The notes: generated from the letters alone by a model not told the origin. Counted from the first letter of the stretch, positions 9,600 to 56,820 are shown. The stretch is DNA of 64,000 bases from Albugo candida (GCA_040437565.1 JBDOQK010000007.1:310001-374000), one strand, 5' to 3'. Made by a program: numbers and translations.

Positions 9600-10265
9600 G
9601 CGCAGGTCTGAATACAAGAAATATGTCACTGCTTGATTTTCAGTAGGATATCCAGTCATGGTATGTGGTTATTACAGAATCTCAGTGGACAGGAAGTCAA
9701 TTATTTATTCACAGAAAAAGTGCTATGAGCGATCATGTGCGGGTGACACAATCAGCACGTTGATCTACTTCTAGCTTTAACGAATTTGATCAAGTATGTC
9801 GCTTTAGTGCGCGTAGACAGGTGAGGTATAATGTGTCAAGATCTGGTAGTGACAGGAGGCAATAAGATGGGATGCAATGTTAAGCCTCTTTTTTTGCCTC
9901 AACCATAAACTTATTACGGAAGATTCTATCTGGCGCTATGTTCAGATAGCGGCCATATCCGCGACAAGTTCCTCGAACATCATCACTACTCTTAGCACTT
10001 GTTCAACTCAATAACGATTCATCGATATAGTCAATCTCATCGGAATCAAAAAAAAAATACGTCAACGGTGATTGATTGTGTGGGGTATCATGAATTGCAC
10101 AGCGATTGTGCAGGCTGGTACCATTGATGAAATCGGTCGAGAAGTAAAGTTGTAACGGTGTATCATTGGTGGGGAATTGATAGTGCTCGATCGAGATTTA
10201 AGGATTAGCTTTCCTTTATCACATAGTCCTATTGTCTTCCTCTCACATACCTAATTTTATGGTCA
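9600..10265. repeat. Decayed segment, inverted homolog of 56060-56820 (part of duplicated block A)
   Basis: The reverse complement shares collinear blocks such as ataggactatgt.ataaa, gcaattcatgatacc.cacacaat, tagtgatgatgttcgaggaa.tt.tcgc and cgtaataag...gaggct.aacat. Confidence 0.8.
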
Positions 10266-10740
10266 AGTATACAAAAACACATTTATCTCAAAGTATACTG
10301 ACTCGTGCAGTATACACGATACTGTAAAATTTCAAATGAGATCCGTATTCCCTTTTATGCGTTTTCCAATTTCACGCACAACCCAACTGGCTGTGATCTG
10401 CGATTGCCGTCCTCTAGATGATGGTACAGGGGTTGCAATATCTCGTTTACTCCTAGGGAAGTATTTTCAACTACACCCGCCGATGACTTCGAGGTTGTTC
10501 GACTTCTATGACGGCAAATGTAAAGTTTTATCTAAGATTCCCTCAGTACCTGTTGTAACGAACAAAATACATGCGCTCCGCATTCAATCGAAAGATACGC
10601 GTGAGCTCAGTTGACCTAAGCATGGGATGCAGCTCGAGACCATCAGGCTGTCTTAAAGACCCTAGACCGTCGCACATTTCGGTTTTGACCCACATTGTTG
10701 TAAAAAAAAGAGCACACCGGTAAGCAATGTAGTATAAGGG

Positions 10741-11070
10741 ATGAACAACACTTTGGCTACGTTCATAGGATCTTCGGGGTAGATACTTCCGGACAGGTCC
10801 ACTGATCTATCCCCTTACTTACTCATCTCCTACACCTGCGGTCATGGACATCAAAGTCATCTCTCAGAACCTGCCGTACTTTTGAGTATCGTCTTGTTGA
10901 CTCCGATCAGCTAAGTTCCATTTCCAAAGTTGTCAGGCATATTCAGTACAAGTCGCTTTTGGATCTTAATTGCTTTCATAGGATGGAACAGCGTACCCAT
11001 TAGAGATAAATGACACGGTCAACTAGGGTTGCAGAATGCTTTAGACTGTACCAGACGTCAGAGAATCCAA
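10741..11070 (+). pseudogene. RCC1-BTB gene pseudogene (deleted inverted copy of 53204-55838)
   Basis: atgaacaaca...cttcggggtagatacttccggacaggtcc matches the RCC1-BTB start atggacaaca...cttcggggcatacagtttcggacaggtgc. About 10835-11065 matches about 54755-54485, including an intron. Large deletions and frameshifts. Confidence 0.8.
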
Positions 11071-11121
11071 ACCGAGCTATGTTAGCATCAATCTCATCTA
11101 CGTGGAAGTACTTAAGGTGCT

Positions 11122-12090
11122 TCATGACATTTCAGAAAGCATGCTAATGAGTCGCATACGACGCATCTTTAAAGACCCGAAAACTGGCACATCGTTGTCA
11201 TGCTTCATGTTTTCATGAGATTTGATAATTTTTGAACCCTGACCTTTCCTTTCTCTCGACATCTTCTTTTGCCAACTCTACGCTAGCAGCAATAGTGAAT
11301 ACAGTATATCAATATCGATTTAACACATTACCTTCTTCTCACNNNNNNNNNNNNNNNNNNNNNNNNNNNNNNNNNNNNNNNNNNNNNNNNNNNNNNNNNN
11401 NNNNNNNNNNNNNNNNNNNNNNNNNNNNNNNNNNNNNNNNNNCATCTTTAAAGACCCGAAAACTGGCACATCGTTGTCATGCTTCATGTTTTCATGAGAT
11501 TTGATAATTTTTGAACCCTGACCTCTCCTTTCTCTCGACATCTTCTTTTGCCAACTCTACGCTAGCAGCAATAGTGAATACAGTATATCAATATCGATTT
11601 AACACATTACCTTCTTCTCACATCCGACAAGGGACGGTCACCCACTTCCTGATGGGCCATTTCCAAAAAAAAAATTCTGCCTTCTGCAAATCCTCTCTAT
11701 CTGACCTGTTTTTCTCCACTCGGTACTTCTTCCAATTTGCTACATCCTTTCCGTCGCTATGACAAATTATCGATAAAAAAAGCCATTCCGACTTGTGCTT
11801 ATTCAGCAACCTGGTAATATAAGCTCATAGTCAGATATTTCCACGGTTTATTACAACATTCAACCATTTTATATATCTATCAAGGTTTACCTTACAAACA
11901 TTCTAAAGTTGCCGTGTTCTTTGACCTTTCCGCACATAAGATTCTCCACTTGTACGATTTCTTCGCCGATATCACCCGTTTGAAAAATAGTACTGCTACG
12001 CATCGCATTTCCCTGATGGAAGCTTTTTCGATTCCCTTTGTACCTGAATGATCGGCATCGGGACTATCATTCGCTCAACTTTGTGAATAT
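11122..12090 (-). pseudogene. DBT: DBT (BCKDH E2) pseudogene, intron-retaining, internally deleted
   Basis: The reverse complement reads ATA TTC ACA AAG (ATG TTC ACA AAG in the intact gene), cgatgccgatcattca, cttccatcaggg, tgatatcggcgaag.aatcg.acaagt, and ends in agcatgct..ctgaaatgtcatga like the DBT stop region. The catalytic-domain exons (about 52080-53035) are missing. Confidence 0.88.
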
Positions 12091-12104
12091 AACGATCCTA
12101 TGTA

Positions 12105-12167
12105 TGTTGAAGTTGCATAAATGCGCACGTAATGATATGTTCCCTTCTTGCCTATAGTACTTACGCT
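12105..12167. promoter_or_regulatory. Conserved DDI1/DBT head-to-head promoter segment (copy 1, upstream of intact DDI1)
   Basis: 63 bp with 6 substitutions against the reverse complement of 51231-51293, visibly better conserved than the flanking pseudogene sequence. Promoter function is inferred from position. Confidence 0.6.
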
Positions 12168-12178
12168 CAGTTCGGACC

Positions 12179-14036
12179 ATGCACCTAACATTCGCATCAT
12201 TCCACGGCGATCATGCAGAACAGATGCAAGTAGATCCGCAACAAACAATTGGGTCATTTCTACCCCAATTGTCGCAAATGGTAATTCATTGTATGTGTAT
12301 AATGCTTGCTATAATATGCTTTTTCATGCGTAGTTCTCGATTCCTGTACAGGAGATAAACGTACAGCACAGAGGTGCCGATTTAGCGCACACTGCCACAG
12401 TCAGATGCTTTATTCATGCGATACTACGAAAGGATCACTAATAGCTGCTCAGTTTCAGAGTTGCGGTATTCAAAAGGATGATTTGCTTTTAATTAAGCGG
12501 AAAGCACCATCTTTGTTGGACACTCCTGCTCCATTTGTGGTCAGAGAAGGCATGCAACTTTATGAAATTCCAGTAAGTAAATCTAAATGACGTCAGTTGA
12601 TATAAAAGGATCTATTTGATAGAGAAATCCATCGCCACAGTTACTCCTCGAAATTTTCGAGAAGAATCCGCAGCTTTTACCACAAGTACGACATAAAATT
12701 GATGTGGCTGGCGCGTCTTAGTGGTTCATGTTCTAGCTGCGTGAAGGGAATGTGGAATTGGCGACTGCGTTAGAGCGTAAGAGCATTCGGGTAATCGTGC
12801 ATGTACTTCAAGGCTGATAATAGGTATTGACAATGTCATGTTGCGCAGGATATTCGAATGGTCTTGATGCAGATGCACATGAAGGAAGCGTCAAGACAAT
12901 ACAAAGAAAATGAAGAAGTTCATACACATTTTGTTCTGAAGAAGCTCCACTGACATCCTTTTCTGGATAGACGGTGGCTCTAGAACGAAATCCGCTTGAT
13001 GCGCAAGCGCAAATCAAAATTGAAGAAACAATTAGACTACGAAACGTACAGCAAAACATGGAAATTGCGATGGAACAGATGCCGGAGGCATTTGCACATG
13101 TCTACATGCTGTACATCCCTTGCGAAGTTAATGATGTACAAGTGCAAGCGTTCGTAGACTCTGGTGCACAATCGACAATCATGTCTTCAGTACTGATTAC
13201 AATTGATACAAGTCTTTTTTCTCATTTGTTGCTGGATAGAGTTGTGCAGAGCGGTGTGGGATCATGAAGCTTGTGGACAAGCGATTTGAAGGAAAAGTGG
13301 GTCTCATCGTGCTACTGATGCCAACATTCCATTGAGTTTCTTTGTGATATAATAAGGCCGTAGGAGTCGGAACAGCCAAAATCATTGGGAGGGTGCACAT
13401 GGCCCCGCTGAAAATTGGCACTTTCTTTTACAACTGTAGCTTTACAATTTTGGAGGAACAGGTGCTGTTCTCCATTGCTTGAATTTTCATCTGGATGAGA
13501 TTCTCTAGGTTTAGACAGTTGATTTTCTCTTCGGATTGGACATGCTGAAGCGCCATCAAGTACATGCACAACAATTACATCATCAATGAACTGTGGTCTC
13601 ACATGTTTTTAAGTGCTGCATTGATTTACACAAAAACGTTCTTCGTCTGCATGAAGCTTCGGGCTTTCACGAGGTCGAGTTTCTTCCCGAGCATGTGAGT
13701 CACCATCGAGTACCAGGCATTATACTAATTACAAATATTCGATAGAAACTACTCGCAAATAAAATCAATGCTTCAAGCAGTGAAAGTGCGACGGAAGCAA
13801 ATTCAGATAGCTCAGCCTGTCAACAAAACTCACAAGTCGCCATCAGCGAGGAAGATATCCGACAGAATGCGATAGAGCAGCTTGTATCGTTTGGATTCGA
13901 ACGGCAGAGGGTATTTGATGCATATTGCGAAGAAATATACTCATAAATAGTGGTGAAGGTCATCCGAGCGCTGGAATCAACCGAATGGAACGCTGAGATT
14001 GCTGCTGGGATCTTGTTTGAAAGTAACAACGCGTAG
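12179..14036 (+). CDS. DDI1: DNA damage-inducible protein 1 (UBL, retroviral-like aspartic protease, UBA), multi-exon
   Basis: Start [21 protein letters not shown] (UBL-like). [89 protein letters not shown]...[14 protein letters not shown] at 14034-14036. Confidence 0.93.
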
Positions 14037-14269
14037 TTGGACCGTTTCTGCTCTTTGATCATTGGATACGGAAATAAATGACAGTAAACCTTTTTGCGTA
14101 TTTGCTTGGCGTTCAAGACTGAAGGATGTCAGTCTGCATCGATAGAGATGCTTTAGGAAGTCGTGACATTTAACGTGATCTCTGCAATTACTAAATGCAT
14201 AATTCAACATGTTTGCAGGCTTTTGGAATGTGTTTTGGCGCTTTACAGGTAGTGAGTATAGAAGGACAA

Positions 14270-15110
14270 ATGTTTCGATGTAGAGAAAGCGTCCTTTTAC
14301 TGGAAAGTATTAATGGAAAATTGATATTCTCCTACACATACATTATCAATCACTTCTGAAACGTATGCTACAATCATGCTCAAGGCTTATCGCTATAGAA
14401 CGGTTTTGACAAAAGTTCAAGTCGAATTGAACGATTGAGAGTGCAGCAANNNNNNNNNNNNNNNNNNNNNNNNNNNNNNNNNNNNNNNNNNNNNNNNNNN
14501 NNNNNNNNNNNNNNNNNNNNNNNNNNNNNNNNNNNNNNNNNNNNNNNNNTGAAGGATGTCAGTCTGCATCGATAGAGATGCTTTAGGAAGTCGTGACATT
14601 TAACGTGATCTCTGCGATTACTAAATGCATAATTCAACATGTTTGCAGGCTTTTGGAATGTGTTTTGGCGCTTTACAGGTAGTGAGTATAGAAGGACAAA
14701 TGTTTCGATGTAGAGAAAGCGTCCTTTTACTGGAAAGTATTAATGGAAAATTGATATTCTCCTACACATACATTATCAATCACTTCTGAAACGTATGCTA
14801 CAATCATGCTCAAGGCTTATCGCTATAGAACGGTTTTGACAAAAGTTTATGTCGAATTGAACGATTGAGAGTGCAGCAAAGAGCTATTGCTCTGACAGAA
14901 ATGAAAACATTGCTACAGAAACCATATTTTTATAGCTTGAACTGGAAAGCGCAGATCAATACGAAAAGCGGAAAAGCGACCGAAACATACAAGAAAAGGG
15001 ATTAATGTGGCAACCAGCCATAAGCTATCTATCGCCAGTCCACAAATTACAGAGCAGCAGGATAAGGCATATGGCCCTCCTTTAGAGAAAAGTACTATCG
15101 TTACTTTCCA
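14270..15110 (+). pseudogene. 5' fragment pseudogene of the DUF1765-like gene (inverted copy of 49570-49090; interval includes an assembly overlap)
   Basis: atgtcgaattgaacg...gctctgacagaaatgaaaacattgctacagaaaccatatttttat matches atgtcgaactaaatgg...gctctcacggaaatgaaagcactacttcaagagccatatttttat. gagcagcagga.aag.ca.at...agta.tatcgtt is also shared. Disrupted by stops and frameshifts. Confidence 0.82.
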
Positions 15111-15592
15111 TGTTCGAATTGCGGCCAGTGACGTTTACAAAGGTACCAAACAGTGATTCGGGGCTGATTATTGCGCTGATTTGTATCGCGCGTGCTCTTG
15201 TTGGTTTGCATGCACTGGAATATGTGCATAGGGATATCCGCTGGCCAAATATTCTGTGCTTGGGAGAGGCTTCATATTTTCTAACTGATTTTGTAAACGC
15301 TGGACGCGATGGCGACCGGATGCCTGATTCATCACTAGAATCGCGACTACTCGATCCCTTGGTGAAGTCTTAGGAATTTGGGCAGGTGTATCGATGTTGT
15401 TATGATATGTATCAATTTGGTTGCCTGATTGTTGATAGTGAAGATGCATCGTTGTGGCAATTGAAAATGAATCTGCAGAGTTCCAACGTTGCAGAAAGAT
15501 ATACAGCAGAAAAAGTGTTGACTTATCTTTCAGGCATGCGGGAAGCGGTACAAGATGGTTGTTCGAAATCAATGGAGCAGTTGGGCAATTGA
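15110..15592 (+). pseudogene. Protein kinase C-lobe fragment, Crinkler (CRN)-associated kinase-like
   Basis: ARALVGLHALEYVHRDIRWPNIL..YFLTDFVNAG, in-frame stop at 15371, then DMYQFGCLI...ERYTAEKVL. No N-lobe. The CRN assignment rests on recalled motif resemblance. Confidence 0.65.
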
Positions 15593-28660: not shown

Positions 28661-28699
28661 GACAGTTATTATATGCCGTAGGCTATTGTAAATAGCGTT

Positions 28700-39392: not shown

Positions 39393-39616
39393 GCTTTTGT
39401 GGTCGTAAATAGTGTGGACAACTTTACGGAGGACACAAGCCACGAATTTGACAGCTCTAAGTCGTGACTTGACAATTGCTTGTATACAATGCTACTATCA
39501 ACATAAAAAAGTGAATCTATAAGTAATCCATTCGTTGTGAAATGCAGCGCTTTTTCAAGTGGCGTGGAAGAGCTTCCGCATTTCATGTAGTGTTACATAA
39601 ATTAGGATATTTCGTA

Positions 39617-41388: not shown

Positions 41389-41488
41389 TAATTAATATAC
41401 ATGACTGGCTTCTTTTTGTAATTTTAATATTACATAGGGCTATTTTGTAAGCAGAATAGGCACATTTCCAAGTATTGGCGGGGAAAAA

Positions 41489-42118: not shown

Positions 42119-42409
42119 AACAAATCAAGTCTAAGGCGCAATCAAGACATCGGGCACACATTTGAACTGTTATGCCAATGAATCCGATAACGCTAATAGC
42201 AAATTGTGTCTTTCTGTTCCCTGTTTACCCCCTCCACACAAGCTCAATACTCGAGACTAACGGACTGACGCTACCTCAATTAAAACCTATGAAAAGCTGA
42301 TACCTGACATGATCCACGGAAATTTTTAGAGCCACCTGATGCCACCATTGTGTCATTGGCTAAATCTGCTACTTTAATTCGAGATTCGAAATTTCGCTTA
42401 AGATTGATA

Positions 42410-43379: not shown

Positions 43380-43541
43380 TCTATCGTTGTACCAGTGAAT
43401 TGCTGCGATAATAATAATAATTTTGAAGATGTACCGCAATGATTCTTTCCACCAATCACTTCAATGAGAGCCCACTTTATTGGATTGGCTGAATTAAGAC
43501 GAACTGGTTGAAGTAGAGTTGAAGTTGACTGAGAACTCATA

Positions 43542-45043
43542 ATGCGCGCATTTCGCAGCTTCTACCAAAATTTAGAGCAGCAAAAAAGGAAGAAATGCAT
43601 GAAGTTCTGCTCATTGAATGCACCTCATACGTCGTATACGGCTGCCACGATGGTCAAGACCGAAACTGACAATCGTACAGAGAAAATGAACATGGTTACT
43701 GCTATAAACGATGCTCTGAGAATCGCTTTGTCAGCCGACCCAACATCAATTGTTTTTGGAGAGGATGTAGCATTTGGAGGAGTCTTTCGTTGCACCATGG
43801 GATTGAAGCATGAATTCGGAAGCGACCGTGTGTTTAACTTTCCACTTTGTGAACAAGTTGAGTGTAAGTTAACTTTTTAGGTCATAATCTAAGAATTCAT
43901 TTTGCGTAGGGAATCGTAGGCTTCGCTATTGGCTATGCGGCCGTCGGGCATACCGCAATTGCAGAAATTCAATTTGCGGATTACATCTTCCCAGCCTTTG
44001 ATCAGGTTCCGATGTTACGATTTGGCAATAGCATAAGTGTACCTGACACTTCTCTCTGCGCCTAAGATTGTGAGCGAAGCTGCTAAGTACCGCTACCGCT
44101 CTGGTGGAGAATTTAGTTGCGGTAAATTGACAGTGCGTGCACCTTATGGTGCCGTGGGTCACGGTGGTCATTATCATTCACAATCTCCTGAGGCGTATTT
44201 TTCTCACACACCAGGACTGAAGGTTTATTTTCATGATTTATGGTAGACTCAATTGACGTTTTCTTCATAGGTGGTTATGCCTAGAGATCCAATCAAGGCA
44301 AAGGGACTACTTCTTGCATCCATAAGGGATGACAATCCAGTTATTTTCCTCGAGCCTAAAGCTTTCTATCGAGCAACCGTGGCTGAAGTATTCTTGCCAA
44401 GCTCGCAGCAATCCACAACAGAATCTTACAAATTTGTCCGCTGGTATAGGTCCCGCTGGGAGATTACATTGAACCATTGGAACGGGCAGAAATCGTCCGG
44501 CGTGGAAATGACGTTACTATTGTCGGTTGGGGATCCCAAGTAAAGCTTTTGGAAAAGGTCAGTCAGGCACGGTTATCTGTATGGTAAGTAAGTGCTCATG
44601 AGGTGAGGATTTTCAGGCGTGCGATATGGCCAACAAAATCGGGATTAGCTGTGAATTGATCGATTTGCAAACAATTCTACCTTGGGATGCTCGAACGATT
44701 GAGCAGTCCGTCCGAAAAACTGGGCGTTTAGTAGTCAGTCATGAAGCTCCAGTACGTACGAAGCTATAGTAGTTTCATGCTAGCGGTCTTATCGTCCCAA
44801 CATTGCAGAAAACAAGCGGTTTTGCCGCTGAAATTGCTGCAACAATCCAGGAACGATGCTTTCTCAGCTTGGAAGCTCCGATACAGCGAATATGCGGTTA
44901 TGATGCTCCATTTCCACTGATATTTGAGAAGGTTCTCACGTCATTTGAAATAAGGATCGTGTGCTTTTGACTTTCTTTTTTAGCACTATCTTCCTGATAC
45001 CTTGAAGATTTTTGAAGCGATCAAAAAGACAATGCAATTCTAG
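43542..45043 (+). CDS. BCKDHB: Branched-chain 2-oxoacid dehydrogenase E1 beta subunit, multi-exon
   Basis: [103 protein letters not shown] at 45041-45043. Confidence 0.95.
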
Positions 45044-45628: not shown

Positions 45629-48600
45629 CTAACCGCCACGAAACGCGCAATAAGTGATGTTGAATTCCAGAGAAGGGGGCGTTGGAATTGCTTGGGGTCG
45701 GTCGAATGCAGCGTCATAGTACCCTTTGAGCAAAGAGACGTATTGTGCCATAGCTTTCTCGACATAGATTTCAAGTCTACGCTCGAAGTATGGAGGATGA
45801 GCATTGTGTTTCAACTGGTCCGCCAACATCTTAAAGACGACATCAAGCTTGCTGACTAGCGATAAATCCACTGATAGCTCCTCATCACTCAAGCTTTCAC
45901 GAAAAATAGCATTCTTTGCGCTGCTGTGTTCTCTACGCAAGCGCGCACTTGTATCCCATCGGAGAAGATCCCGTACTGCCCGTGCGCCACTACTTTCATC
46001 TGTTTCGGAGCCTCCGGTTCCGTTAGGTGACCGAAAGATTGTTTGAGCAAGATCGCTCAACTGTGTCCAATACATTGTGACCGGTGAAGTGATAGGCGAG
46101 AATTCGCTTGCCTTAAAGTATGGCGTATTCGCAAGCAGGACTCGGTCTGAAGAACAGGGGAGTGCTAAGCGATTCGACAAGGCCATTCGATAAACCACAA
46201 GATGGCAAAATATCTTTCGGACTTCCTCATTCCAATGGAGAAAAAAGTTGAAAAAGTTTTCACGAAGAAGAGTTTCACCAAAAAGACGTTGCCGGCCATT
46301 TGGTGGAATTAAAGCTGCATTGAGTCGACATCAGAATGTGAATTTCCAGCGATAAATATGCTAATCGTACCGATGGTGGTGTACACAAACGTCATGATCT
46401 TCAGCAGAATTTCAACATGGAGCGAGCCAAGCGCTGTTTGTATTGCTTTAATGAAGTAGTCGCTGTCAAATGTGACTGAAACATTCAAAACAAATCGAGG
46501 AACTATTCCACGGACACAATCATGCTGCGATGACCATAATTGTCGACGTCCGCTTCTTGGACACGTAAACGCTGCGATCATCAAAAGTCGCTGCAAAATG
46601 GTGATTGAGTAATTGACGCTTGCTGAATCTAGGATGTTTGTTCCCTCCAGTGCAACCTGATACAGCGTATTAGTTCAATTTTAGCGTCTCAGCAAAAACC
46701 AACCTGGACAAAAGGATTCACAAGCCAATTGTTCTGAAAAATTTCGGTGAAGTCATCCAAGATAGGTGCAAGATCACGATGATGCCAATACGCTGCCCAG
46801 TAATCCTCTAGTGGGTTTTCGACATGCTCTTTAAGGCATGAGATCAATCCAATTGGTTTCAATGTGAGTGAGATCGGATTGACGCTCCCACGAGCCCGTC
46901 GGCGGCATATTTGTCGAAACAAGTTGAAGACAGCCCGAACGAGGACAAAGTAACCAGGAATGCAGTGCCATATCATGGCATTTGGTACTTTTACCTTACT
47001 TCCGTGAACTTGACCGGATTGGAAAATGCCTTGGTGCCAATACCTGACATCTCTGAACAGCGCGACGGTAAATGGTACAATCAATATACTTTCGCGTACT
47101 GGTTGCCGAAGTCGATTTAGAAAAGGTTGTAGCATCTTTTCGAGATCATTGGAGCTGATAACATTTCGGCCCATGAGCAAGGCTTGAGTTTTGCTAGAAG
47201 AAAATAAGAGTGGAATGCTGGAGAGGAAAGCTATGCAATCGCTATCTTCAAATTCTGCCATGTGCTACACAATGTACTGATAGTTTGAGCTGCTCAAAAA
47301 ATGTCAAAAAGCTTCCTACCTGTTCGAATGCGACTTTAAGAGTCACGTCCACATCTTTGTAAATCAATCTACTACTCCCCTTCGCTTTACAATATCCCTC
47401 ATTGATTACAGGCGATTCTTCGGTCTTCATATGTGCAAAAAATTGACTGAGAACAAACTGCTTGCACTCCCTCGAGTCAACTGCTCCCATATCTGTATCG
47501 ATTCGATCTACAATGCATGGTCAGCCTGCAGCGCACGAACAAGAAAGACTTTGCATACTTGGCTTGATTTCGTGCCAATCACNNNNNNNNNNNNNNNNNN
47601 NNNNNNNNNNNNNNNNNNNNNNNNNNNNNNNNNNNNNNNNNNNNNNNNNNNNNNNNNNNNNNNNNNNNNNNNNNNNNNNNNNGTAATCCTCTAGTGGGTT
47701 TTCGACATGCTCTTTAAGGCATGAGATCAATCCAATTGGTTTCAATGTGAGTGAGATCGGATTGACGCTCCCACGAGCCCGTCGGCGGCATATTTGTCGA
47801 AACAAGTTGAAGACAGCCCGAACGAGGACAAAGTAACCAGGAATGCAGTGCCATATCATGGCATTTGGTACTTTTACCTTACTTCCGTGAACTTGACCGG
47901 ATTGGAAAATGCCTTGGTGCCAATACCTGACATCTCTGAACAGCGCGACGGTAAATGGTACAATCAATATACTTTCGCGTACTGGTTGCCGAAGTCGATT
48001 TAGAAAAGGTTGTAGCATCTTTTCGAGATCATTGGAGCTGATAACATTTCGGCCCATGAGCAAGGCTTGAGTTTTGCTAGAAGAAAATAAGAGTGGAATG
48101 CTGGAGAGGAAAGCTATGCAATCGCTATCTTCAAATTCTGCCATGTGCTACACAATGTACTGATAGTTTGAGCTGCTCAAAAAATGTCAAAAAGCTTCCT
48201 ACCTGTTCGAATGCGACTTTAAGAGTCACGTCCACATCTTTGTAAATCAATCTACTACTCCCCTTCGCTTTACAATATCCCTCATTGATTACAGGCGATT
48301 CTTCGGTCTTCATATGTGCAAAAAATTGACTGAGAACAAACTGCTTGCACTCCCTCGAGTCAACTGCTCCCATATCTGTATCGATTCGATCTACAATGCA
48401 TGGTCAGCCTGCAGCGCACGAACAAGAAAGACTTTGCATACTTGGCTTGATTTCGTGCCAATCACTTTGTGATTCATGGCCAGTATTTGTTGGCGAAGAC
48501 ACTATTTTTTCTCTTTCGATAGACTTACCCTTTCTGGGACTCATAACCATCTTCGAAAGACCCTCATTAACCGCAGCTATTATTGTCGATGATGTGCTTG

Positions 48601-49570
48601 GAAACCGCAAGTAGATTCCAGCATACATTTCTCCAATATACTGCAAAGATTCCGGTGGAATCGTGAGCGATCGATTCAATTGCAAGGCTGCGAACTGTGC
48701 ACCGCGGCACAACAATTTATGAAATCGCTCCAGCACTTTACCGATACCACATAGGCCATGAACACGAATATATGAATGGTCAATTTTCAGCACGAAATAG
48801 CTCACGCTTACACACCCTCTAAATTAACACTGATTAGATCTGTTTGCTCGAAAAGCTGGTAGCCTTGAATGAACTCCGCTCGCCGACTTATACAGGCCGT
48901 CAACTGCAAAAATATGCCGTGCGACCGATTTCGGATCGGTAAGACTTCGCACATGTCGAGCAAATATTCCCTGAGATGGGTCAAGCAATTGGCTAGTCAT
49001 AGGTAATTATGATTCATTCTGCATCGAAGAGCTAGCGTACCACAAACTCAGCAAGCAAGTTTGACCCATTACTAGTGGAAGCGTCTTCTTGAATGGAATT
49101 GAACGATAATACTGTTCCCAAAGATAGCTATGTGTCTTTTCCTGCTGCTCGATACTTTGGGAAGTGTCCACAGACAAATTACGGCTGTTTGCCACTTTTG
49201 AACGCCCGCTTTCGCGTATTGTTCGATCGATCTTAATGTTCTCCTTTTTATTATCTGCTCCCCAATCTGAATAATAAAAATATGGCTCTTGAAGTAGTGC
49301 TTTCATTTCCGTGAGAGCGACAACCTTCTTCTCCAGCTCCCAGCCATTTAGTTCGACATGCTTCTTATCAAATCCGCCCACTAGGGAATTTGCTTGATCA
49401 TAATTATGGTTCGTACTTCCGCGAGGCGAAAATACTGTCCATTCTCGTGTTTTCGAGAGGTTTCGCAGCTGATGATGCAGTTGAGAAGTAAATCGTAGAT
49501 GTGTAGAAGAAGATTCACGATCGATTGGTGGTGACTCTGTAAAAGAAAACTTTTCACTCCATCCGAACAT
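45629..49570 (-). CDS. Conserved hypothetical multi-exon protein, probable DUF1765 family (contains an assembly overlap)
   Basis: Series of minus-strand exon ORFs. GIYLRFP, WHCIPGYFVLVRAV and FFNFFLHWNEEVRKIFCHLVVYRM resemble DUF1765 proteins. The start is uncertain. Confidence 0.6.
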
Positions 49571-49844
49571 GCTTTCTACGTTAGTAGCTGCTTGTAAGCG
49601 TCAAATTACACGCTTGAAAATTTGCGTACGTGTGGAATCCTGAGTAGTTGTCGCGGGGTACGCGTTTCATGTCCCAACTACCCTGCCGCATCCTTATACT
49701 AGCCGGTCGATGCAGCCATATGCGAGCTGGCATCATTTCCTTTTCAATGTCGAGCAAATAGAGAGTAGAGTTTGCTCTCAATCCGTTTGGCATAGGAATG
49801 ACAGGCTGAGAATGAAGAAATGTGATAAAAGGTTCTACCATTGC

Positions 49845-51219
49845 ATTATTACTCGGAAAAAAATCCTCGCAGCAACCTCAGCGCTCAGTTCCATCGCAAA
49901 ACCATGTTGCTTCGCGATATACATCACACACCCTTTGCTATTCGAATGCAAGCGACATAATCTTTCGGATTGCAGTCTGTCGGATTTCTTCCTCGCTGTT
50001 GCGACTACAGAGCTTTTGTTGACGAGCCAAGATGCCTAAGTTTGCTTCCATCGCATTCTCATAGTCTGAAGTATCGATTTTTTTGCGGATGATTTCCATT
50101 TTCCATGATAAAAATTAGTACCAAAGTCAGATACTCGATGTGGTCACATGCTCGCGAAGAAACCTGACCTCGGAAAGCCTGAAGCTACATGTGGACGATG
50201 AACGTTTTTGTGTAAATTATTGCAGCACTAACGAAATGAGCCATTGATGATGCAATCGCTCTGGAAAGACGACTTTCTAAATCTAGAAAGTCTTATCAAA
50301 TGAAAATCCGTGCAATAGAGAAAAGCACGTGTTGCTCCAGAATTGTAAAGTTGTGGTTTGAGAGAGTCTTGTTCATCCTCCCATGATTTTTTCTGATTGA
50401 TTCCTGTGGCCTAATTCGAAATGAAATAAGTTTACTCAGTGTTAGCATCAGAGGCATGATGGAACCAGATTTCCTTGAAATCGCATTCCCATTTGGCAGC
50501 GCTCTGCATCAGTCTAGTAAGTCTAGTACTATCAAACGAATTTCGCTCTAATGCCATACAAATGAGAAAAGAGTGAAGCTTGAAGAGAAATATAAATATG
50601 TATGTGCCTCTTCATGCTATTTGTATGCTCTTAAAGCTTCCTTCATGTGCATATTTATCGGGATCATTATGGTAGTCTATCCATACTTGGAGAGGAACTA
50701 CTCCGCATGTGTTTCCCAATGCTCTACCACATTCCCCAGAGACAACTACCGCCTATACGCATCAAAAATGGATCCATTGCGACAGGCTTGAGTTAGAAGT
50801 GGCATTTATTCGTCTCAGCTGTCTTACGGGAATTCTGTGAAGTTGCAGGCCTTCTCTGACCCCAAATGTAGCAGGAGTGTGCAAGAAAGATGATGATAGC
50901 CGCTCAACAAGTTATAACCATCATTTTAAATGTCACAGATCCAAAACTAAGCAGCGATTGATTGATTATACCGTAATATCGCATGCATAAACCTTTCGAC
51001 TACGGTAGTGCGCGCTAAAATCAGCGCCTTTGTGTTGTACATTTGCCTCCTGCATAGAATCCAAAGGTCAAGCACTTACAGAGCACAATTTAGCATTTAA
51101 TCTGCATATAATCATTCAACTTTTGTGAAAATGATAGATAAATGATCTGACTCTTTGTTGCGGATCGATTTGCACCTATTCCTCATAATCGCAATGGAAT
51201 TTTGCAATTTCACCTGCGT
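49845..51219 (-). pseudogene. DDI1: DDI1 pseudogene, intron-retaining inverted copy
   Basis: The reverse complement aligns collinearly with 12179-14036: start ATG->ACG, gatccgcaacaaa, cactcctgct.catttg.ggtcagagaaggc.tgcaactt, atgcacatgaaggaagc, atttacacaaaaacgttc.tcgtc, cagcgaggaaga.atccgacaga. The segment carrying the DSGAQ motif is deleted. Many stops. Confidence 0.92.
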
Positions 51220-51230
51220 GGCTCGGATTA

Positions 51231-51293
51231 AGCGTAAGTGCTGTATGCAAGAAGGGAACATAGCATTATGTGCGCATATATGCAACTTCAACA
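51231..51293. promoter_or_regulatory. Conserved DDI1/DBT head-to-head promoter segment (copy 2, upstream of intact DBT)
   Basis: Inverted homolog of 12105-12167 (57/63 identical). Confidence 0.6.
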
Positions 51294-51303
51294 TCGGATC
51301 GTA

Positions 51304-53114
51304 ATGTTCACAAAGCATGCGCGAGGGATTGTCCCTACAATTCGATGCCGATCATTCACGTCCTATATGAACCGAAAAAACTTCCATCAGGGGAACGTGC
51401 GATGTGTAGCGATAGTTCCCTTCAAACTGGCTGATATCGGCGAAGGAATCGCACAAGTTGAAATCTTGCAGTGGTTTGTCCGGGAAGGTCAAAAAATACA
51501 GCAATTTGAGAGTGTTTGTCAAGTACAAAGCGATAAAGTCGAATGAATTCATTTCAGTGGACCCAATAGAGAATGACTGAATGTTGTAGGCAACCGTTGA
51601 GATCACCAGCCGATTTGATGGCATTGTGCGGAAAATTCATTACCAAGTTGGTGAATCAGCACACGTCGGAAAAGCTCTCATCGATATCGAGTTAGAAAGA
51701 GGATCTGTCACTCCTCATAGTGACGATAAGGAATGTAAAAAATCGGAAGAAGAAATATCGGGTGGAGATAAATCGGCTCGGATGGAGAAGCTTTCTGGAG
51801 AAGAACAGACAGATTTTGATACCCTGGAAACGGCGCCTCAAATAATAAGTGACCGTTCTTATATTGGATGTGAAAATAAGGTAAGCGATTGAAGTGTTAT
51901 AGATTTAGTCTATTTACACTGGATACTGGAGTAGTTTCTTGCCGCTCCATCCGTTCGACGTTTGGCAAAAGAACATGGTGTCAATTTGAGTGAGCTGGTC
52001 GCAACCGGAACGAAAGGAATGATAACGAAGGAAGACTTGCTCAAATTTATCAAATCTTCGGTAGGCCTGAAGGAGGGACGGAATAGTATTCAAAAAAGAG
52101 ATGCAACCATAGCCTATCCGCTTGAAGATACTGTTCTTCCTATTACTGGTAACGATTGTTTCCTGCGCTGGAATAGGTTGCAGGTTTTTTCATACTTTGC
52201 TTGCTCAACAGGGCTGAGGAAAAAGATGTTCCAAACAATGAGAATGGCACTTCAGATTCCCCAGTTTGGGTATTGTGATGAGGTCCGTCCTTTTCTCCTA
52301 CTCGACTCAATATTCTCAGCGTACGCAAGAACACCGTAAAATGTAGATACAAATGGATGCTTTGCACAAGGTACGCAACGAGATGAAAGGATTGGCGAGT
52401 TTTCGTGATCACAGCTTATCGTACATGCCATTTCTAATCAAGGTGATTATTGACTTCCCCAGTCACAAGAAATGGTGGCCTGACTTTCAATGTAGGCTGC
52501 TTCACTTGCATTAAAACATTATCCGATACTCAATGCTAGGGTCGATGAATGCGGAAGCAAAATGGTACTTCTTGCCGCACACAACATTTCTATTGCAATG
52601 GATACGACAGAAGGCCTCGTTGCGCCAAATATCAAGAACGTCCAGGTTGGTGCATTTTGCAATATGATTAGTTGATTTTTGAACGTGATTTTATCGACAG
52701 TCAAAAGGGATTATGGAAATTGCCGATGAACTGAATCGCTTACAAAAACTTTCAGCTGAAAAAAAGCTAACGCCGTCAGATTTTAAGAACGGAACGTTCA
52801 CGTGCGTGTGGCGCTTTTACATGCAACACATGCAATAATATTATTCCGAATGTAGACTTTCCAACATTGGAAGCATCGGTGGTACATACATGATGCCAGT
52901 CTTGCTGGTTCCTCAGGTTGCAATCGGCGCAATGGGAAGGATTCAAACTCTTCCTCGATTTGACGAAAAAGGGAATACCATACCCGTGAGATTGATGAAT
53001 GTATCATGGAGTGGAGACCATCGCGTTATAGATGGAGCGACAATGTGCCGATTTTCAAATCTTTGGAAAATGTATCTCGAGCGACCCACAAGCATGCTAG
53101 CTGAAATGTCATGA
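51304..53114 (+). CDS. DBT: BCKDH E2 dihydrolipoyl transacylase, multi-exon (alternative start at 51280)
   Basis: Lipoyl domain [13 protein letters not shown]...[17 protein letters not shown]3-binding [11 protein letters not shown], catalytic [10 protein letters not shown] and [19 protein letters not shown]. Confidence 0.95.
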
Positions 53115-53203
53115 AGCATCGAGGGATAACCTTAACGACGCAAGTCATCCCATTTTGCGAACGAGATCGATGCTAACCCAGCTCAATATAATTTATGTGC
53201 TGC

Positions 53204-55838
53204 TTACTGATTCTGGTTCTTTATTGCTACACCATGTCGAGATGCGATACAAAAGAGCTCCTGAAGCAGGCTAGGCGGAAGATCCACAAATGACTGAAGA
53301 CACAACGAAAAGAGATTAAGCTTACACCTGAAGTGAACTTCACATAATGACATTACCTCAAGTGCAATCACTTCCCCGAAATGATCCATGACGAAATCCA
53401 CGCACCGTTTCTTCAGCAAGTGCGTATTTCGAAAATGAGCATTCTGAGACGGCGTTAGCCAGCCCATCAGCAAACTGAGCGAGAGGCTACCTGAAGTACG
53501 ACCACAACGTTGTCTAGGGAAAGCTCTTTGAGGATGTACGTCTCACACATGCTAAAGCAATTAAAATCGGTTTGTTTCTTTGACAAAGAATAAGTTGATG
53601 ATAAATCATGATACCTGCGAAGTTTCTGGACAAGATACTGGTCAGCCAGAGCTAGTAACTCCAAAAGAAATCCTTATATGATAGATTGTGGGTGAGAATT
53701 ATACGAATGATGGAACAAGATCATACGTACCAGTATCAGGCTTAGACATTTGTATGCTTTGCACTTCGTCGGTATACAGAAATTCCAAGAAGACTTCAAA
53801 CACTTCAGGCTGTACATCGTTCATATCAGATGTTATACGTCTTCGAGATTGTAGTCGTACCGAATAATCTGGTATTCTGATCTCTGACAATGATCCTTCA
53901 ATCATTCTTCCATCCAGCATTTTCTCCAACGGCTCACATCGCGCCATCAAAATACAGCTGTGAGCGTGGAGGCGTACGTTTGAAAGTAGGAAGACTACAT
54001 CACTACGCATCGGATTGTTGACCAGTTNNNNNNNNNNNNNNNNNNNNNNNNNNNNNNNNNNNNNNNNNNNNNNNNNNNNNNNNNNNNNNNNNNNNNNNNN
54101 NNNNNNNNNNNNNNNNNNNNNNNNNNNGTCGTACCGAATAATCTGGTATTCTGATCTCTGACAATGATCCTTCAATCATTCTTCCATCCAGCATTTTCTC
54201 CAACGGCTCACATCGCGCCATCAAAATACAGCTGTGAGCGTGGAGGCGTACGTTTGAAAGTAGGAAGACTACATCACTACGCATCGGATTGTTGACCAGT
54301 TCACCAAGATCGTGGCAGAGCGTATGGTGTGTATGTAGTGCACTTTCAGTGCTGGCTTTTGTCGCTGTCAAGCAGATGGAATGATAAAATCCGGAAGCGA
54401 CCTGCAATGAAGTTAGCTCAGCCTCGCTATTTGAGTCGAAATGAAGAACCTTGACAACGAATTTATCGCGAAGAGAAGCAATGATCTGAGGACTGGTACA
54501 GTCTAAAAGATTTCCCAAGCCTAGTTGGCCGTGGTTATTTCTTCCAAATGGATATACTTTGCCATCCTTTGAAAGCACCAGTGTATGATAGCACCCACAA
54601 GCGACTTGTAGTGCTTGAGTCTTAGCCAGTGCATTTATCAGCTATGATCATGACAAGTATAGAAATATCATTAAGCTGATCAGGGTCAACAAGACTGTGC
54701 ATCAAAAGTACAGTAGGTTTCGAGAGGTGTTGTCGATGTCCATGGCCAAGCTGTCCATAGTCATTCCGACCAAATGAGTAAACCAATCCACTTTCTGCCA
54801 ACGCGGCTGTATGGTAATAGCCACAAGCAAGACTTGGCACTATAAGGGAGTCCAAAGGAGCCGCCAAAAGTGAAGGACTCGTGTGGTAGTCGGATGTATC
54901 TCCAGTCCCAAGTTGTCCATGATCATTTTTTCCGAATGCGACGACACCACCACTTGCCAACGACACGACAGTATGATGCTGGCCACAAGCAACCGCTAGA
55001 ACAGGTCGGCAATTAAAATAACTTAACGGAACAGGAACATGTCGGTCCATCCCATCATCAATTCCAAGCTGCCCGAGATCATTCCGACCAAATGCATACA
55101 AGGTCCCTTCCAGGGTCATCACGACCGTATGGAAATAACTACAGGCGACTTCGACTACGTGCTGCGATGCTAAATCTTCTAATTTGGTGGGTGTTGAGAT
55201 GGAAGTTGTGCTGCCGTGTCCTAATTGGCCTCGACTATTGAATCCAAACGTGTAAAGTTCTCCAGAGCCTGGCATGTTCATGTGAGTTGAAGCAAGAGCT
55301 CAGCGTAAGATTGGTACGCACTGGATATCGCTGTGAGATGCTCACATCCATTGGCTGAGCGAATGTTTGCAATTTTCTTGTTGACAAGCGATGGAACCAA
55401 ATGAAGAGATTGCACGCGTGAGGTGCTTCCGATTCCGCACTGACCGCTAATGGTGTGCACGAAGGTAGCCGCTTGCTGAAAGCCCAGATTGGTGGTAGAA
55501 ACGCACCTATCGTTATATCCGCATGTGTACACATCTCCTGATTCTGCGAAACAATCCGTCATGCGTTGATAGTGATCATCAGGACGCATGTGAAGATATA
55601 CCAAAAAGAAAGGCTGTCTGCTCGTTACCGCAGGCGACATCCATTATCTTGACGTTATGGCAGAATAAAATTGGAGTCGGCACTGTTCGATCGACTGTAT
55701 CGTCGTGGCATAGTTCGCCATAAGAATTCTACGGAGCATAGGAGGTGTAGCTGGATGAGCAAGCATGACGATAGATCTCTGCACCTGTCCGAAACTGTAT
55801 GCCCCGAAGGTCTCGTGTGCGATCTTATTGTTGTCCAT
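53204..55838 (-). CDS. RCC1 repeat and BTB domain protein (RCBTB-like), multi-exon
   Basis: Multiple RCC1 repeats (FGRNDYGQLG, VACGQHHT, LACGYYHT) followed by BTB (SDVVFL...HAHSCILMARCEPLEKML, FLEFLYTD, LLALADQY) and BACK-like helices. Confidence 0.9.
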
Positions 55839-56059
55839 ACCTTATAAACTTTATATCGTGTATCGTATCAAAGTGCTTCTGTGTATCATTTGTGGCTCAA
55901 ACCCACAAAGTGTACTACCGTCCAGAGTCTTTATGACAGCCCCAGCACTAACATCAAAAGGCGGAAAATGCGTAGACAGTGCAGGATGCCATCTGACATT
56001 CGTCAGCATAATAAATCTTGCACGATTCATTTATGATCAAAGATAGTTCGTCTTGCTAA

Positions 56060-56820
56060 AGCTGACCGTAAATCAGGTAGGCTAGGGAGAGACGATAGGA
56101 CTATGTAATAAAAAGAAGCTGGCTCCTACAACCTCGACTGAACATGATCGATCAATCAATCCCTGCAACAAAATGATTAACTGATGCATATTACATGATA
56201 TTCGTAGACTGGATCACAATTAATAGGGAAAACACCACTCATGTGATCCTGAACAGCAAGTTAAGTCGTAATTAAGCTGGATTGAGCAGATCGATTACCA
56301 CTACATCAGTGTGAGCGGAAACATTACTTCTTGAACGCTATCGTTGATGATATCAATCTGCACAACCCTTGGGCAATTCATGATACCACACACAATGAAC
56401 CACTACAAATCGATGCTTGATTCCAGTAAGCTTGCCCGTTTGGATAAATGGTGATCAGATCAAAGGAATGCAGAGAATAGTGATGATGTTCGAGGAAATT
56501 ATCGCTGACATGTATGCTGCATGGGAATAAGTACGGGGCAATGCAAAGCTTTCGTAATAAGGTGACGGTCAAGGCACATAAGGAGGCTCAACATCACTTC
56601 CTATTATATTGTGTAACTGCGTAGAGGTCCTGCCAGACCTCAAAACGAATACAGCTCACTTTCCTACGCGTGCAAACGCGACATACCCAATCACAGTCGT
56701 TGAGGACAGTAGAACATTTTGCGCGTGTTCTTGCTGGAGTATTGATCCAGGGTCCTATCGAAGCCAAGATATCATCGCGAACTAACTTCAAGTAGTCTCA
56801 TGCAGCTTGTCTTTAGATCA
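56060..56820. repeat. Decayed segment, inverted homolog of 9600-10265
   Basis: Collinear shared blocks as listed for 9600-10265. Confidence 0.8.

What the first reader, a model, noticed from the sequence alone, without database searches (positions are those of the whole stretch)
9600..56820. Ancient inverted duplicated block with reciprocal gene loss (block A)
Seen: about 9.6-15.1 kb is a collinear, intron-retaining inverted paralog of about 56.8-49.1 kb. The left copy keeps DDI1 and carries dead RCC1-BTB, DBT and DUF1765 copies. The right copy keeps RCC1-BTB, DBT and DUF1765 and carries a dead DDI1. Every gene survives exactly once, and the dead copies shrank by large deletions. Inference: this is the fractionation signature of a large DNA-level duplication followed by return to single copy, unexpected in a compact oomycete genome. 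The copies are far too diverged to be an assembly artifact.
Basis: partly seen in the sequence, partly recalled or inferred. Interest (0 to 1): 0.85.

Follow-up and report, generated by a model that had tools for sequence, protein, structure and literature searches.

The report
Decayed inverted gene-block duplication in Albugo
A stretch of about ten genes in the white-rust oomycete Albugo candida was copied in reverse orientation nearby and then decayed so that each gene survives in only one copy, a clear but ordinary example of how duplicated DNA returns to single copy.

Summary
Window 9779-15111 is a collinear, reverse-strand paralogue of 56701-49093, with 11 chained blastn HSPs at 65-81% identity and none in 5 shuffles. 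Protein matches name the organism as Albugo candida. The left arm holds an intact, spliced DDI1 (407 aa, 12 introns seen in RNA-derived contigs) plus wrecks of RCC1-BTB, DBT and DUF1765. These wrecks keep 11-33% of the coding bases and carry frameshifts and stops. The right arm holds stop-free RCC1-BTB, DBT and DUF1765 and a wrecked DDI1 that lacks its protease core. The dead copies keep introns and intergenic DNA, so the copy was made at DNA level. The event is larger than reported. A second DUF1765 fragment and a dead half of a coiled-coil gene at 60755-62733 continue the degenerate copy on the same strand. The intact unit therefore spans at least 33048-56701 (about 22 kb, ten genes), and the degenerate copy brackets it. 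A. laibachii has DUF1765, DDI1 and RCC1-BTB under near-consecutive accessions, which fits a single-copy ancestral cluster. Neutral divergence is about 0.3-0.35 per site. Timing after the A. candida/A. laibachii split is favoured weakly. Independent contigs and a second assembly support the structure. This is a known kind of event, of moderate to low interest.

The parts
9779..15111 (.). Left arm (degenerate copy, piece a): RCC1-BTB upstream DNA, RCC1-BTB-psi, DBT-psi, intact DDI1 and DUF1765-psi-a. It is 4624 bases after removing two gap artefacts.
   Evidence: Collinear reverse-strand HSPs. An independent contig spans 9888-15249. Clean length.
10769..11073 (+). RCC1-BTB pseudogene. 184 of 1662 coding bases are alignable, with 3 frameshifting indels and 1 in-frame stop in 54 aligned codons. 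About 1.0 and 1.1 kb are deleted.
11118..12195 (-). DBT (branched-chain 2-oxoacid dehydrogenase E2) pseudogene. 458 of 1389 coding bases are alignable, with 15 frameshifting indels. About 1 kb holding most of the catalytic domain is deleted.
12179..14036 (+). Intact DDI1 (UBL, retropepsin with DSGA, UBA). It encodes 407 aa and has 12 GT-AG introns of 48-60 nt.
   Evidence: Spliced joints in RNA-derived contigs. CDS built. 100% match of exons to an A. candida protein. Pfam Asp_protease.
14790..15060 (+). DUF1765 pseudogene, piece a (residues about 54-143). It has 11 frameshifting indels and 1 in-frame stop.
15117..15420 (.). Dispersed kinase-like repeat X, placed exactly at the end of the left arm. 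An inverted copy lies at 927-1326. Short-read contigs break here.
33029..36442 (-). Long coiled-coil protein gene, the leftmost gene of the intact unit. Its C-terminal half (33048-34598) has the dead paralogue at 62733-61681.
36896..44540 (.). ZW10 (-), LisH-WD40 (+), emp24 (+), mitochondrial carrier (+) and transketolase-type E1-beta (+). These genes lie inside the intact unit and have no detectable second copy in the window.
   Evidence: Pfam. No off-diagonal hits.
45632..49570 (-). Intact DUF1765 gene. The model is 897 aa with 6 introns and ends in TAG. In this assembly it is interrupted only by the gap artefact at 47583-48465.
49093..56701 (.). Right arm of block A (part of the intact unit): DUF1765 5' exon, DDI1-psi, DBT, RCC1-BTB and upstream DNA. 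It is 7335 bases after artefact removal.
49902..51205 (-). DDI1 pseudogene. 613 of 1224 coding bases are alignable, with 9 frameshifting indels and 2 in-frame stops in 145 aligned codons. The exon with the catalytic DSGA has no aligned counterpart.
51328..53114 (+). Intact DBT (lipoyl, E3-binding and 2-oxoacid_dh catalytic domains). The model has at least 463 aa and 7 introns and ends in TGA.
53348..55838 (-). Intact RCC1-BTB. The model is 554 aa with 10-11 introns and is 83% identical to the A. laibachii orthologue. The gap artefact 54028-54301 lies inside it.
60755..61677 (+). DUF1765 pseudogene, piece b (residues about 427-659). It is on the same strand as piece a and collinear with it, and has 5 frameshifting indels and 2 stops.
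61681..62733 (+). Dead copy of the C-terminal half of the coiled-coil gene. It is joined directly to DUF1765-psi-b, which implies an 11.5-kb deletion relative to the intact unit.
   Evidence: The longest ORF here is 96 aa.
2746..4124 (.). Possible extension of the paralogy. Three further collinear reverse-strand HSPs match 58365-57436. The area also holds dispersed repeats, so its status is uncertain.
6007..9569 (-). GPCR-PIPK gene, head to head with RCC1-BTB-psi. There is no remnant on the right: 5654 bases on the left correspond to 734 on the right.

Best explanation
A local DNA-level duplication in the Albugo candida lineage copied a block of about 22-24 kb in inverted orientation. The block held the coiled-coil gene, ZW10, LisH-WD40, emp24, a mitochondrial carrier, E1-beta, DUF1765, DDI1, DBT and RCC1-BTB, and perhaps GPCR-PIPK. 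With every gene redundant, one copy of each was free to decay. Nine genes stayed alive in the central copy (33048-56701). DDI1 stayed alive only in the other copy, and GPCR-PIPK too if it was included. The other copy otherwise shrank to 6.6 kb through deletions of 0.25 to 11.5 kb plus many small frameshifts. This is reciprocal gene loss (fractionation) after a segmental duplication. Shown here are the paralogy, its DNA-level nature, the alive or dead status of each copy, and the presence of the left arm in independent data. Inferred are that there was a single event, that pseudogenes lost constraint early (first and second codon positions diverge about three-quarters as much as third positions), and that the event came after the split from A. 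laibachii. Today the degenerate copy lies in two same-strand pieces on either side of the intact copy. This needs either a copy inserted into itself in one step (replication template switching) or a second rearrangement. That step is not resolved.
For: Collinear reverse-strand HSP chain with E down to 2e-104, and 0 HSPs in each of 5 shuffles. Similarity appears in all reading frames, that is, at nucleotide level. Introns and intergenic DNA are retained in the dead copies. Left DDI1 is intact, spliced at 12 GT-AG introns in RNA-derived contigs, and encodes 407 aa. Right RCC1-BTB, DUF1765 and DBT give stop-free spliced models of 554, 897 and at least 463 aa. The dead copies keep 11%, 30%, 33% and 50% of the coding bases and carry 3, 16, 15 and 9 frameshifting indels, plus in-frame stops at 1 of 54, 3 of 232 and 2 of 145 aligned codons. 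Mismatch fractions are 0.218, 0.220 and 0.280 at codon positions 1, 2 and 3, 0.260 in introns and 0.246 in other non-coding DNA. DUF1765-psi-a (residues 54-143) and psi-b (residues 427-659) are on the same strand and collinear, and psi-b abuts the dead coiled-coil half. A. laibachii accessions are CCA15082/3 for DUF1765, CCA15084 for DDI1 and CCA15086 for RCC1-BTB. At 81 amino-acid sites where A. candida and A. laibachii differ, the pseudogene matches A. candida at 32, A. laibachii at 15 and neither at 34, with two-sided binomial p = 0.019. Contigs of a possibly source-related run (838-12353) and of an independent 2011 run (9888-15249) span the left arm and skip only the gap artefacts, at single-copy depth. 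In a second A. candida assembly, DDI1, HCNGP and WD40-emp24 carry locus tags ABG067_001567, _001570 and _001574 on a record of 724,188 bases. In the CCI assembly they are CCI41785, CCI41780 and CCI41768 on a record of 153,693 bases.
Against: The present geometry (a, spacer, intact copy, spacer, b) is not what a simple inverted duplication gives. The spacers (about 16 kb clean with RPS10 and HCNGP, and 4 kb) are single copy and unexplained. About 1 kb of DUF1765 (residues 144-426) is missing from the degenerate copy. The a/spacer junction lies in a dispersed repeat where short-read contigs end, so that join rests on the assemblies alone. With outgroup polarisation the timing test is uninformative: at A. 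candida-derived sites psi matches A. candida at 3 and A. laibachii at 3. The unpolarised count could also be tilted by aligning the pseudogenes to A. candida DNA. The A. laibachii DBT accession (presumably CCA15085) was not seen. No genome is held, so further copies elsewhere cannot be excluded beyond the single-copy depth of the left arm.
Confidence: 0.85

Rival explanations
1. The duplication is older than the A. candida/A. laibachii split. A. laibachii then lost the whole degenerate copy, or kept all genes in one copy, while A. candida resolved it reciprocally.
For: The polarised shared-state test is flat: 3 against 3 at A. candida-derived sites. The pseudogenes are only about 50% identical in amino acids to either species' protein. 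In A. candida itself nine of ten genes were kept in one copy, so one-sided resolution in A. laibachii would not be surprising.
Against: The unpolarised count is 32 against 15 in favour of A. candida states. Neutral K is only about 0.3-0.35, while the orthologous proteins already differ at 15-20% of residues. A. laibachii accessions suggest one tidy cluster.
Confidence: 0.25
2. Assembly artefact. The two arms would be alleles, haplotypes or homeologous regions wrongly joined on one scaffold of a gappy assembly.
For: The window has 11 gaps of 100 N, most with duplicated flanks, so the scaffold was merged imperfectly. Short-read contigs break at the repeat at 15.2 kb.
Against: About 25% mismatch, kilobase deletions and complementary gene death are not allelic variation. 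The left arm has single-copy depth, and an independent run bridges it from end to end. Two assemblies place DDI1 a few genes from HCNGP and WD40 on the same record. The gap flanks overlap at 99-100% identity, so the joins are supported by sequence.
Confidence: 0.03
3. The left arm is a set of gene fragments captured by a mobile element or made by retroposition, not half of a segmental duplication.
For: Inverted copies of the dispersed repeat X flank 1326-15117. The fragments are short and broken.
Against: Introns and intergenic DNA are retained in genomic order over four genes. The only live DDI1 in the window sits in that arm, while the 'parent' locus has a dead DDI1. A captured fragment would not replace its parent.
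Confidence: 0.03
4. Geometry variant. The event was a triplication with an inverted middle copy (copy, inverted copy, copy). Pieces a and b would be remnants of two different outer copies, not one split copy.
For: Pieces a and b lie on opposite sides of the intact copy, in the same orientation, and do not overlap in content. This is what complementary decay of two outer copies would leave.
Against: It needs more DNA to have been made and lost. The single-copy spacers holding RPS10 and HCNGP sit where the lost parts should be. Divergence of a and b from the intact copy is similar, which does not discriminate between the two models.
Confidence: 0.15

Closest known systems
Co-localised small homologous blocks (2HOM/3HOM blocks) of Phytophthora genomes, read as segmental duplications (van Hooff et al. 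[quoted passage not shown]
   Same: An oomycete with collinear multi-gene paralogous blocks on the same scaffold. Inverted blocks with conserved relative gene orientation are one of the recognised configurations.
   Different: Those blocks are defined by pairs of surviving genes. Here only one copy of every gene survives, so gene-based block searches would miss it. It is visible only at DNA or pseudogene level, and it is in Albugo, which the passages I read do not cover ('Albugo' occurs 0 times in PMC4040989).
Reciprocal gene loss / fractionation after duplication, as described for polyploid yeasts (Scannell et al. 2006, seen only as a citation in PMC4040989; content recalled)
   Same: Redundant copies are lost from alternative paralogous regions, so the single-copy gene set becomes split between the two regions.
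   Different: Here the scale is one segment of about 22 kb, not a genome. Loss is very one-sided: nine genes were kept in one copy and one or two in the other.
Inverted duplications made by replication template switching or fold-back (DUP-TRP/INV-DUP type structures; recalled, no paper read here)
   Same: An inverted copy is embedded between two same-orientation parts of the original, with a stretch missing between the two outer parts. This is the layout a - inverted(ab) - b seen here.
   Different: Junction microhomology and inverted repeats at the switch points cannot be read after this much decay. Single-copy spacers of about 16 and 4 kb lie at both junctions, which the simple model does not predict.
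Inverted duplications at inversion breakpoints from staggered breaks (Drosophila; recalled, no paper read here)
   Same: It gives pairs of inverted duplicates in the order P, Q-inverted, P-inverted, Q, which matches a, b-inverted, a-inverted, b.
   Different: It would require an inverted segment of zero length and duplicated parts covering the whole unit. The spacers are again unexplained.

Membership tests
DNA-level segmental duplication | Collinear homology across several genes, including intergenic DNA | tested here: met
   13 chained HSPs cover four genes, the RCC1-BTB upstream region and the DBT/DDI1 divergent promoter. There were 0 HSPs in each of 5 shuffles.
DNA-level segmental duplication | Introns retained in the paralogous copies | tested here: met
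   DDI1-psi aligns over introns 1, 2, 9 and 11 (49-53 of 51-53 nt), three of them with GT..AG kept. RCC1-psi aligns over 67 of 70 nt of one intron.
DNA-level segmental duplication | Both copies present on one molecule in independent data | tested here: met
   Locus tags ABG067_001567, _001570 and _001574 lie on one 724-kb record, and CCI41785, CCI41780 and CCI41768 on one 153.7-kb record. The left arm is bridged by an independent contig.
Reciprocal gene loss (fractionation) | Each gene has exactly one intact copy, and the intact copies are split between the two paralogous regions | tested here: met
   DDI1 is intact on the left and dead on the right. RCC1-BTB, DBT and DUF1765 are intact on the right and dead on the left. 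This holds within the window only; the rest of the genome is not held.
Reciprocal gene loss (fractionation) | An outgroup shows the unduplicated single-copy order | tested here: inconclusive
   A. laibachii accessions CCA15082/3 (DUF1765), CCA15084 (DDI1) and CCA15086 (RCC1-BTB) are near-consecutive. CCA15085 was not seen, and no A. laibachii DNA could be examined.
Processed pseudogene / retrocopy | Lacks introns and flanking genomic DNA | tested here: not met
   Introns and intergenic DNA are present in the dead copies.
Assembly duplicate (unmerged overlap) | Near-identical copies directly flanking a gap | tested here: not met
   The arms differ at about 22-28% of aligned sites. The feature is met only by the short repeats at the N gaps, which reads skip.
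Paralogon from whole-genome duplication | Many blocks of one age spread over different chromosomes | not testable with these tools
   No genome is held. The two copies lie within 64 kb of each other, which favours a local event.
Template-switch inverted duplication (DUP-INV type) | Inverted copy between same-orientation outer parts, with junctions at microhomology or inverted repeats | tested here: inconclusive
   The layout fits. The junctions are decayed, one carries a dispersed repeat, and single-copy spacers are unexplained.

The most novel reading that the evidence does not exclude
The whole structure (piece a, inverted full copy, piece b, with about 1 kb of DUF1765 present only in the inverted copy) is the fossil of a single replication template-switch event in an oomycete. 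Because DDI1 (and perhaps GPCR-PIPK) survives only in the outer copy while nine genes survive only in the inner one, neither copy can now be lost. Albugo lineages that resolved the redundancy differently would carry a built-in hybrid incompatibility of the reciprocal-gene-loss type.
Probability: 0.12. Interest if true: 0.55.

Novelty: new member of a known kind. Interest (0 to 1): 0.3.

Why it matters
It is a clean, fully readable case of a segmental duplication caught after complete return to single copy in a very gene-dense obligate biotroph (A. laibachii has a median of 45 bp between genes in transcribed regions; PMC3130010, passage read). It shows that gene-based searches for duplicated blocks miss such events, because no gene pair survives. 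Pseudogene-level or DNA-level self-comparison would be needed to measure how often Albugo genomes duplicate segments. It also moved the only live DDI1 away from its ancestral neighbours, which matters for synteny-based orthology and for annotation. For annotation, the four to five pseudogene fragments and the 11 gap artefacts in this scaffold could be mis-called as genes or as duplications. Beyond that, it is an expected outcome of known processes.

Tried and rejected
- **Earlier notes of this scan:** none were found, by place or by words.
- **Metagenome scans for other Albugo loci:**
  - The DDI1 alignment gave 400 pattern matches, none confirmed.
  - The DUF1765 alignment gave 596 pattern matches and 1 confirmed locus, L001 (2380 bases, 53% identity over 36 residues). 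It is not Albugo and was not used.
- **RNA runs:** no RNA holder was listed by the run search.
  - Two runs of uncertain kind (X8 and X9, with identical figures, probably one data set filed twice) proved RNA-derived by their spliced joints.
  - Their lack of cover at 1264-5247 is noted here only.
  - Whether their unspliced contigs over 9493-10973 and 11.2-11.9 kb mean that the pseudogene region is transcribed is left open.
- **Polarised timing test with outgroups:** too few sites to decide (A. candida-derived: 3 against 3; A. laibachii-derived: 3 against 2).
- **Possible emp24 remnant at 15742-15831:** this was a lone tblastn hit with E = 1e-5.
  - It has no nucleotide support.
  - One of 20 shuffles reached E = 5e-5.
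  - It was rejected as chance.
- **Further remnants:** searches for the missing DUF1765 residues 144-426 next to either junction, and for similarity between 27.5-33 kb and 62.7-64 kb, found nothing.
- **Gene order of A. laibachii in print:** the term 'AlNc14C8G' occurs in 0 papers.
- **Literature on Albugo duplications:**
  - 'Albugo candida' + duplication + pseudogene gave 19 papers; none of the 12 listed concerns this (listing only).
  - 'Albugo candida' + 'Albugo laibachii' + synteny gave 7 papers (listing only). In Kemen et al. 2011 'segmental' occurs 0 times.
- **Pfam:** one call failed on a wrong frame. It was redone in frame and gave only sub-threshold coiled-coil matches.
- **tRNA scan:** ARAGORN found no tRNA in the window, despite a tRNA-like high-copy element near 20.4 kb.

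Full report
**What the window is.** Exons of the window are 100% identical to an Albugo candida protein (CCI41785.1), and the next best hits are A. laibachii proteins at 84-92% identity. G+C is about 42%. Genes have many short introns of 48-60 nt, seen directly in spliced contigs. The scaffold holds 11 gaps of 100 N. Most are flanked by 99-100% identical direct repeats of 174-1028 bases. Contigs of public runs skip two of them, 11247-11525 and 14421-14850, so they are unmerged contig overlaps and not biology. No whole genome is held.

**The observation.** Sensitive self-blastn gives a chain of 13 collinear reverse-strand HSPs between 9779-15111 and 56701-49093. Identity is 65-81% and E reaches 2e-104. 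Five block-shuffled controls gave no HSP at E<=1e-3. Translated self-comparison finds the same pairs in several frames on both strands, which means the similarity is in the DNA and not in a conserved protein. After removing the gap artefacts, the left arm is 4624 bases and the right arm 7335 bases.

**Genes and their state.** Pfam on all ORFs of at least 80 aa (148 ORFs) and tblastn with oomycete homologues give the following map.
- **Left arm**
  - RCC1-BTB-psi: 10769-11073, +
  - DBT-psi: 11118-12195, -
  - DDI1: 12179-14036, +
  - DUF1765-psi-a: 14790-15060, +
- **Right arm**
  - DUF1765: 49570-45632, -
  - DDI1-psi: 51205-49902, -
  - DBT: 51328-53111, +
  - RCC1-BTB: 55838-53348, -

Left DDI1 is alive. 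Contigs of two runs (identical figures, probably one data set) carry 12 GT-AG joints. Joining the exons gives a 407-aa protein with the DSGA protease motif and a UBA tail. A spliced dynamic-programming alignment to the A. laibachii or Pythium orthologues gives stop-free models for the three right-hand genes:
- RCC1-BTB: 554 aa.
- DUF1765: 897 aa, ending in TAG.
- DBT: at least 463 aa, ending in TGA.

The four dead copies are broken as follows (frameshifts and coverage, stops):

| Dead copy | Coding bases still alignable | Frameshifting indels | In-frame stops |
|---|---|---|---|
| RCC1-BTB-psi | 184 of 1662 | 3 | 1 of 54 aligned codons |
| DUF1765-psi (two pieces) | 816 of 2691 | 16 | 3 of 232 aligned codons |
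| DBT-psi | 458 of 1389 | 15 | not counted |
| DDI1-psi | 613 of 1224 | 9 | 2 of 145 aligned codons |

The exon with the DDI1 catalytic motif has no counterpart on the right. Deletions of 995, 1092 and 1122 bases removed most of RCC1-BTB and of the DBT catalytic domain on the left.

**DNA-level origin.** DDI1-psi aligns across introns 1, 2, 9 and 11 of the live gene, and RCC1-psi across 67 of 70 bases of one intron. The RCC1-BTB upstream region (9779-10769 against 56701-55812) and the short divergent DBT/DDI1 promoter are also paired. Retroposition is therefore excluded.

**The event is larger than block A.** DUF1765 has a second dead fragment at 60755-61677 (residues about 427-659). It is on the same strand as fragment a (residues 54-143) and collinear with it. 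It abuts 61681-62733, which is a dead copy of the C-terminal half (34598-33048) of a long coiled-coil gene at 33029-36442. The intact unit therefore runs at least from 33048 to 56701, which is 21.85 kb clean. It contains ten loci: coiled-coil, ZW10, LisH-WD40, emp24, a mitochondrial carrier, a transketolase-type E1-beta, DUF1765, DDI1-psi, DBT and RCC1-BTB. The degenerate copy is reduced to 4.6 + 2.0 kb. An 11.5-kb deletion removed the DUF1765 tail, E1-beta, the carrier, emp24, WD40, ZW10 and the coiled-coil head without trace.

Three more collinear reverse-strand HSPs (2746-4124 against 58365-57436) suggest that the unit reached beyond GPCR-PIPK. That gene (6007-9569) is alive on the left and absent on the right, where 734 bases correspond to 5654 on the left. 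That area also holds dispersed repeats, shown by raised contig depth. I rate this extension as probable, not shown.

**Geometry.** On the + strand the order is:
- piece a (9779-15111);
- a spacer of 17.9 kb in window coordinates (about 16 kb without artefacts), holding a dispersed kinase-like repeat, a spliced and highly covered RPS10, HCNGP and retroelement debris;
- the intact unit in the opposite orientation;
- a 4-kb spacer;
- piece b (60755-62733).

A plain inverted duplication does not give this order. It fits an inverted full copy embedded in the original. In that reading, replication runs through a, switches strand and copies the whole unit backwards, then switches back and resumes about 1 kb further on. 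This would also explain why DUF1765 residues 144-426 exist only in the inner copy. Alternatively it is a triplication with an inverted middle copy, followed by complementary decay. Neither model explains the single-copy spacers. I tested several single-inversion histories on paper and none reproduces the order. This part is inference.

**Age.** Mismatch fractions between the copies are 0.218, 0.220 and 0.280 at codon positions 1, 2 and 3, 0.260 in introns and 0.246 in other non-coding DNA. The corresponding Jukes-Cantor distances are 0.26, 0.26, 0.35, 0.32 and 0.30. First and second positions have diverged about three-quarters as much as third positions, which is what is expected if one copy of each pair lost constraint early.

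Across 431 aligned codons there are 81 sites where the A. candida and A. laibachii proteins differ. At these sites the pseudogene has the A. candida residue at 32, the A. laibachii residue at 15 and another residue at 34. The two-sided binomial p is 0.019. This leans towards a duplication inside the A. candida lineage, roughly half to two-thirds of the way back to the split if rates were equal. The count is unpolarised and could be tilted by aligning the pseudogenes to A. candida DNA. With outgroups, too few sites remain (3 against 3). The accession in between was not seen.

**Is it real DNA on one molecule?** The stretch 54128-64000 is held at 0.98 of sampled words by four runs (marked as possible sources), and at 0.66-0.88 by eight further runs. 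In all, 20 holder rows come from 11 studies. Laid on 600-20500:
- A possibly source-related run gives one contig across 838-12353.
- An independent 2011 run gives one contig across 9888-15249.
- Both contigs skip only the gap artefacts, at single-copy depth.

Contigs end in the repeat at 15.2 kb. The join to the spacer therefore rests on the assemblies. In the CCI assembly DDI1, HCNGP and WD40 are CCI41785, CCI41780 and CCI41768 on a 153.7-kb record. In a second assembly they are ABG067_001567, _001570 and _001574 on a 724-kb record.

**Comparison with what is known.** Segmental duplications that leave small collinear blocks on one scaffold are described for Phytophthora, and reciprocal gene loss is discussed there as a consequence of duplication (PMC4040989 and PMC2996974, passages read). 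Albugo genomes are described as highly compact (PMC3130010, passage read). My searches found no description of this block or of fully fractionated blocks in Albugo (listings only).

**Verdict.** The finding is real and nicely complete, but it is a new example of a known process. What is mildly unusual is that no gene pair survives, so only DNA-level comparison reveals it, and that the degenerate copy brackets the intact one.

Noticed in passing
window 337-436, 11343-11442, 14450-14549, 20555-20654, 21696-21795, 24789-24888, 26710-26809, 33712-33811, 35918-36017, 47583-47682, 54028-54127: There are eleven 100-N gaps, most flanked by 99-100% identical direct repeats of 174-1028 bases. These are unmerged contig overlaps. 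Four lie inside genes discussed here and would create false tandem duplications or split gene models.
   Followed up: partly
window 15117-15420 and 927-1326: A dispersed repeat with a kinase-like motif (HRDIRWPN in one frame). Summed contig depth is about 20 times the single-copy level. One copy sits exactly at the end of the left arm, and an inverted copy lies 14 kb to the left.
   Followed up: partly
window 20389-20500 (and 4137-4243): A very high-copy element. Summed contig depth is about 6600 against 54, and the loose ends look like the 3' part of a tRNA. It may be a tRNA-derived SINE. ARAGORN calls no tRNA in the window.
   Followed up: no
window 9493-10973 and 11224-11887: Unspliced contigs of the RNA-derived runs cover the RCC1-BTB-psi and DBT-psi regions. 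The DDI1 contig runs on to 15249 across DUF1765-psi-a. The pseudogene remnants may now serve as UTRs of GPCR-PIPK and DDI1.
   Followed up: no
window 43533-44540 and 51328-53111: A transketolase-type E1-beta subunit gene lies 7 kb from DBT, the E2 of the branched-chain 2-oxoacid dehydrogenase. Two subunits of what may be one complex are therefore neighbours.
   Followed up: no
window 39527-42118: The LisH-WD40 gene and the emp24 gene, only about 100 bases apart, are fused into one 746-aa model (ABG067_001574) in a second A. candida annotation. This is probably an annotation merge.
   Followed up: no
window 12179-12460: The deposited A. candida DDI1 model (390 aa) starts at the second ATG (12224) and lacks two residues at the second intron, compared with the RNA-supported splicing (407 aa from 12179). 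A. laibachii DDI1 supports the longer N-terminus.
   Followed up: partly
window 23000-32000: A gene-poor stretch with a reverse-transcriptase RNase H fragment (30648-30908) and a repeat shared with 2874-3043 (26334-26502). It is probably retroelement debris inside the spacer.
   Followed up: no
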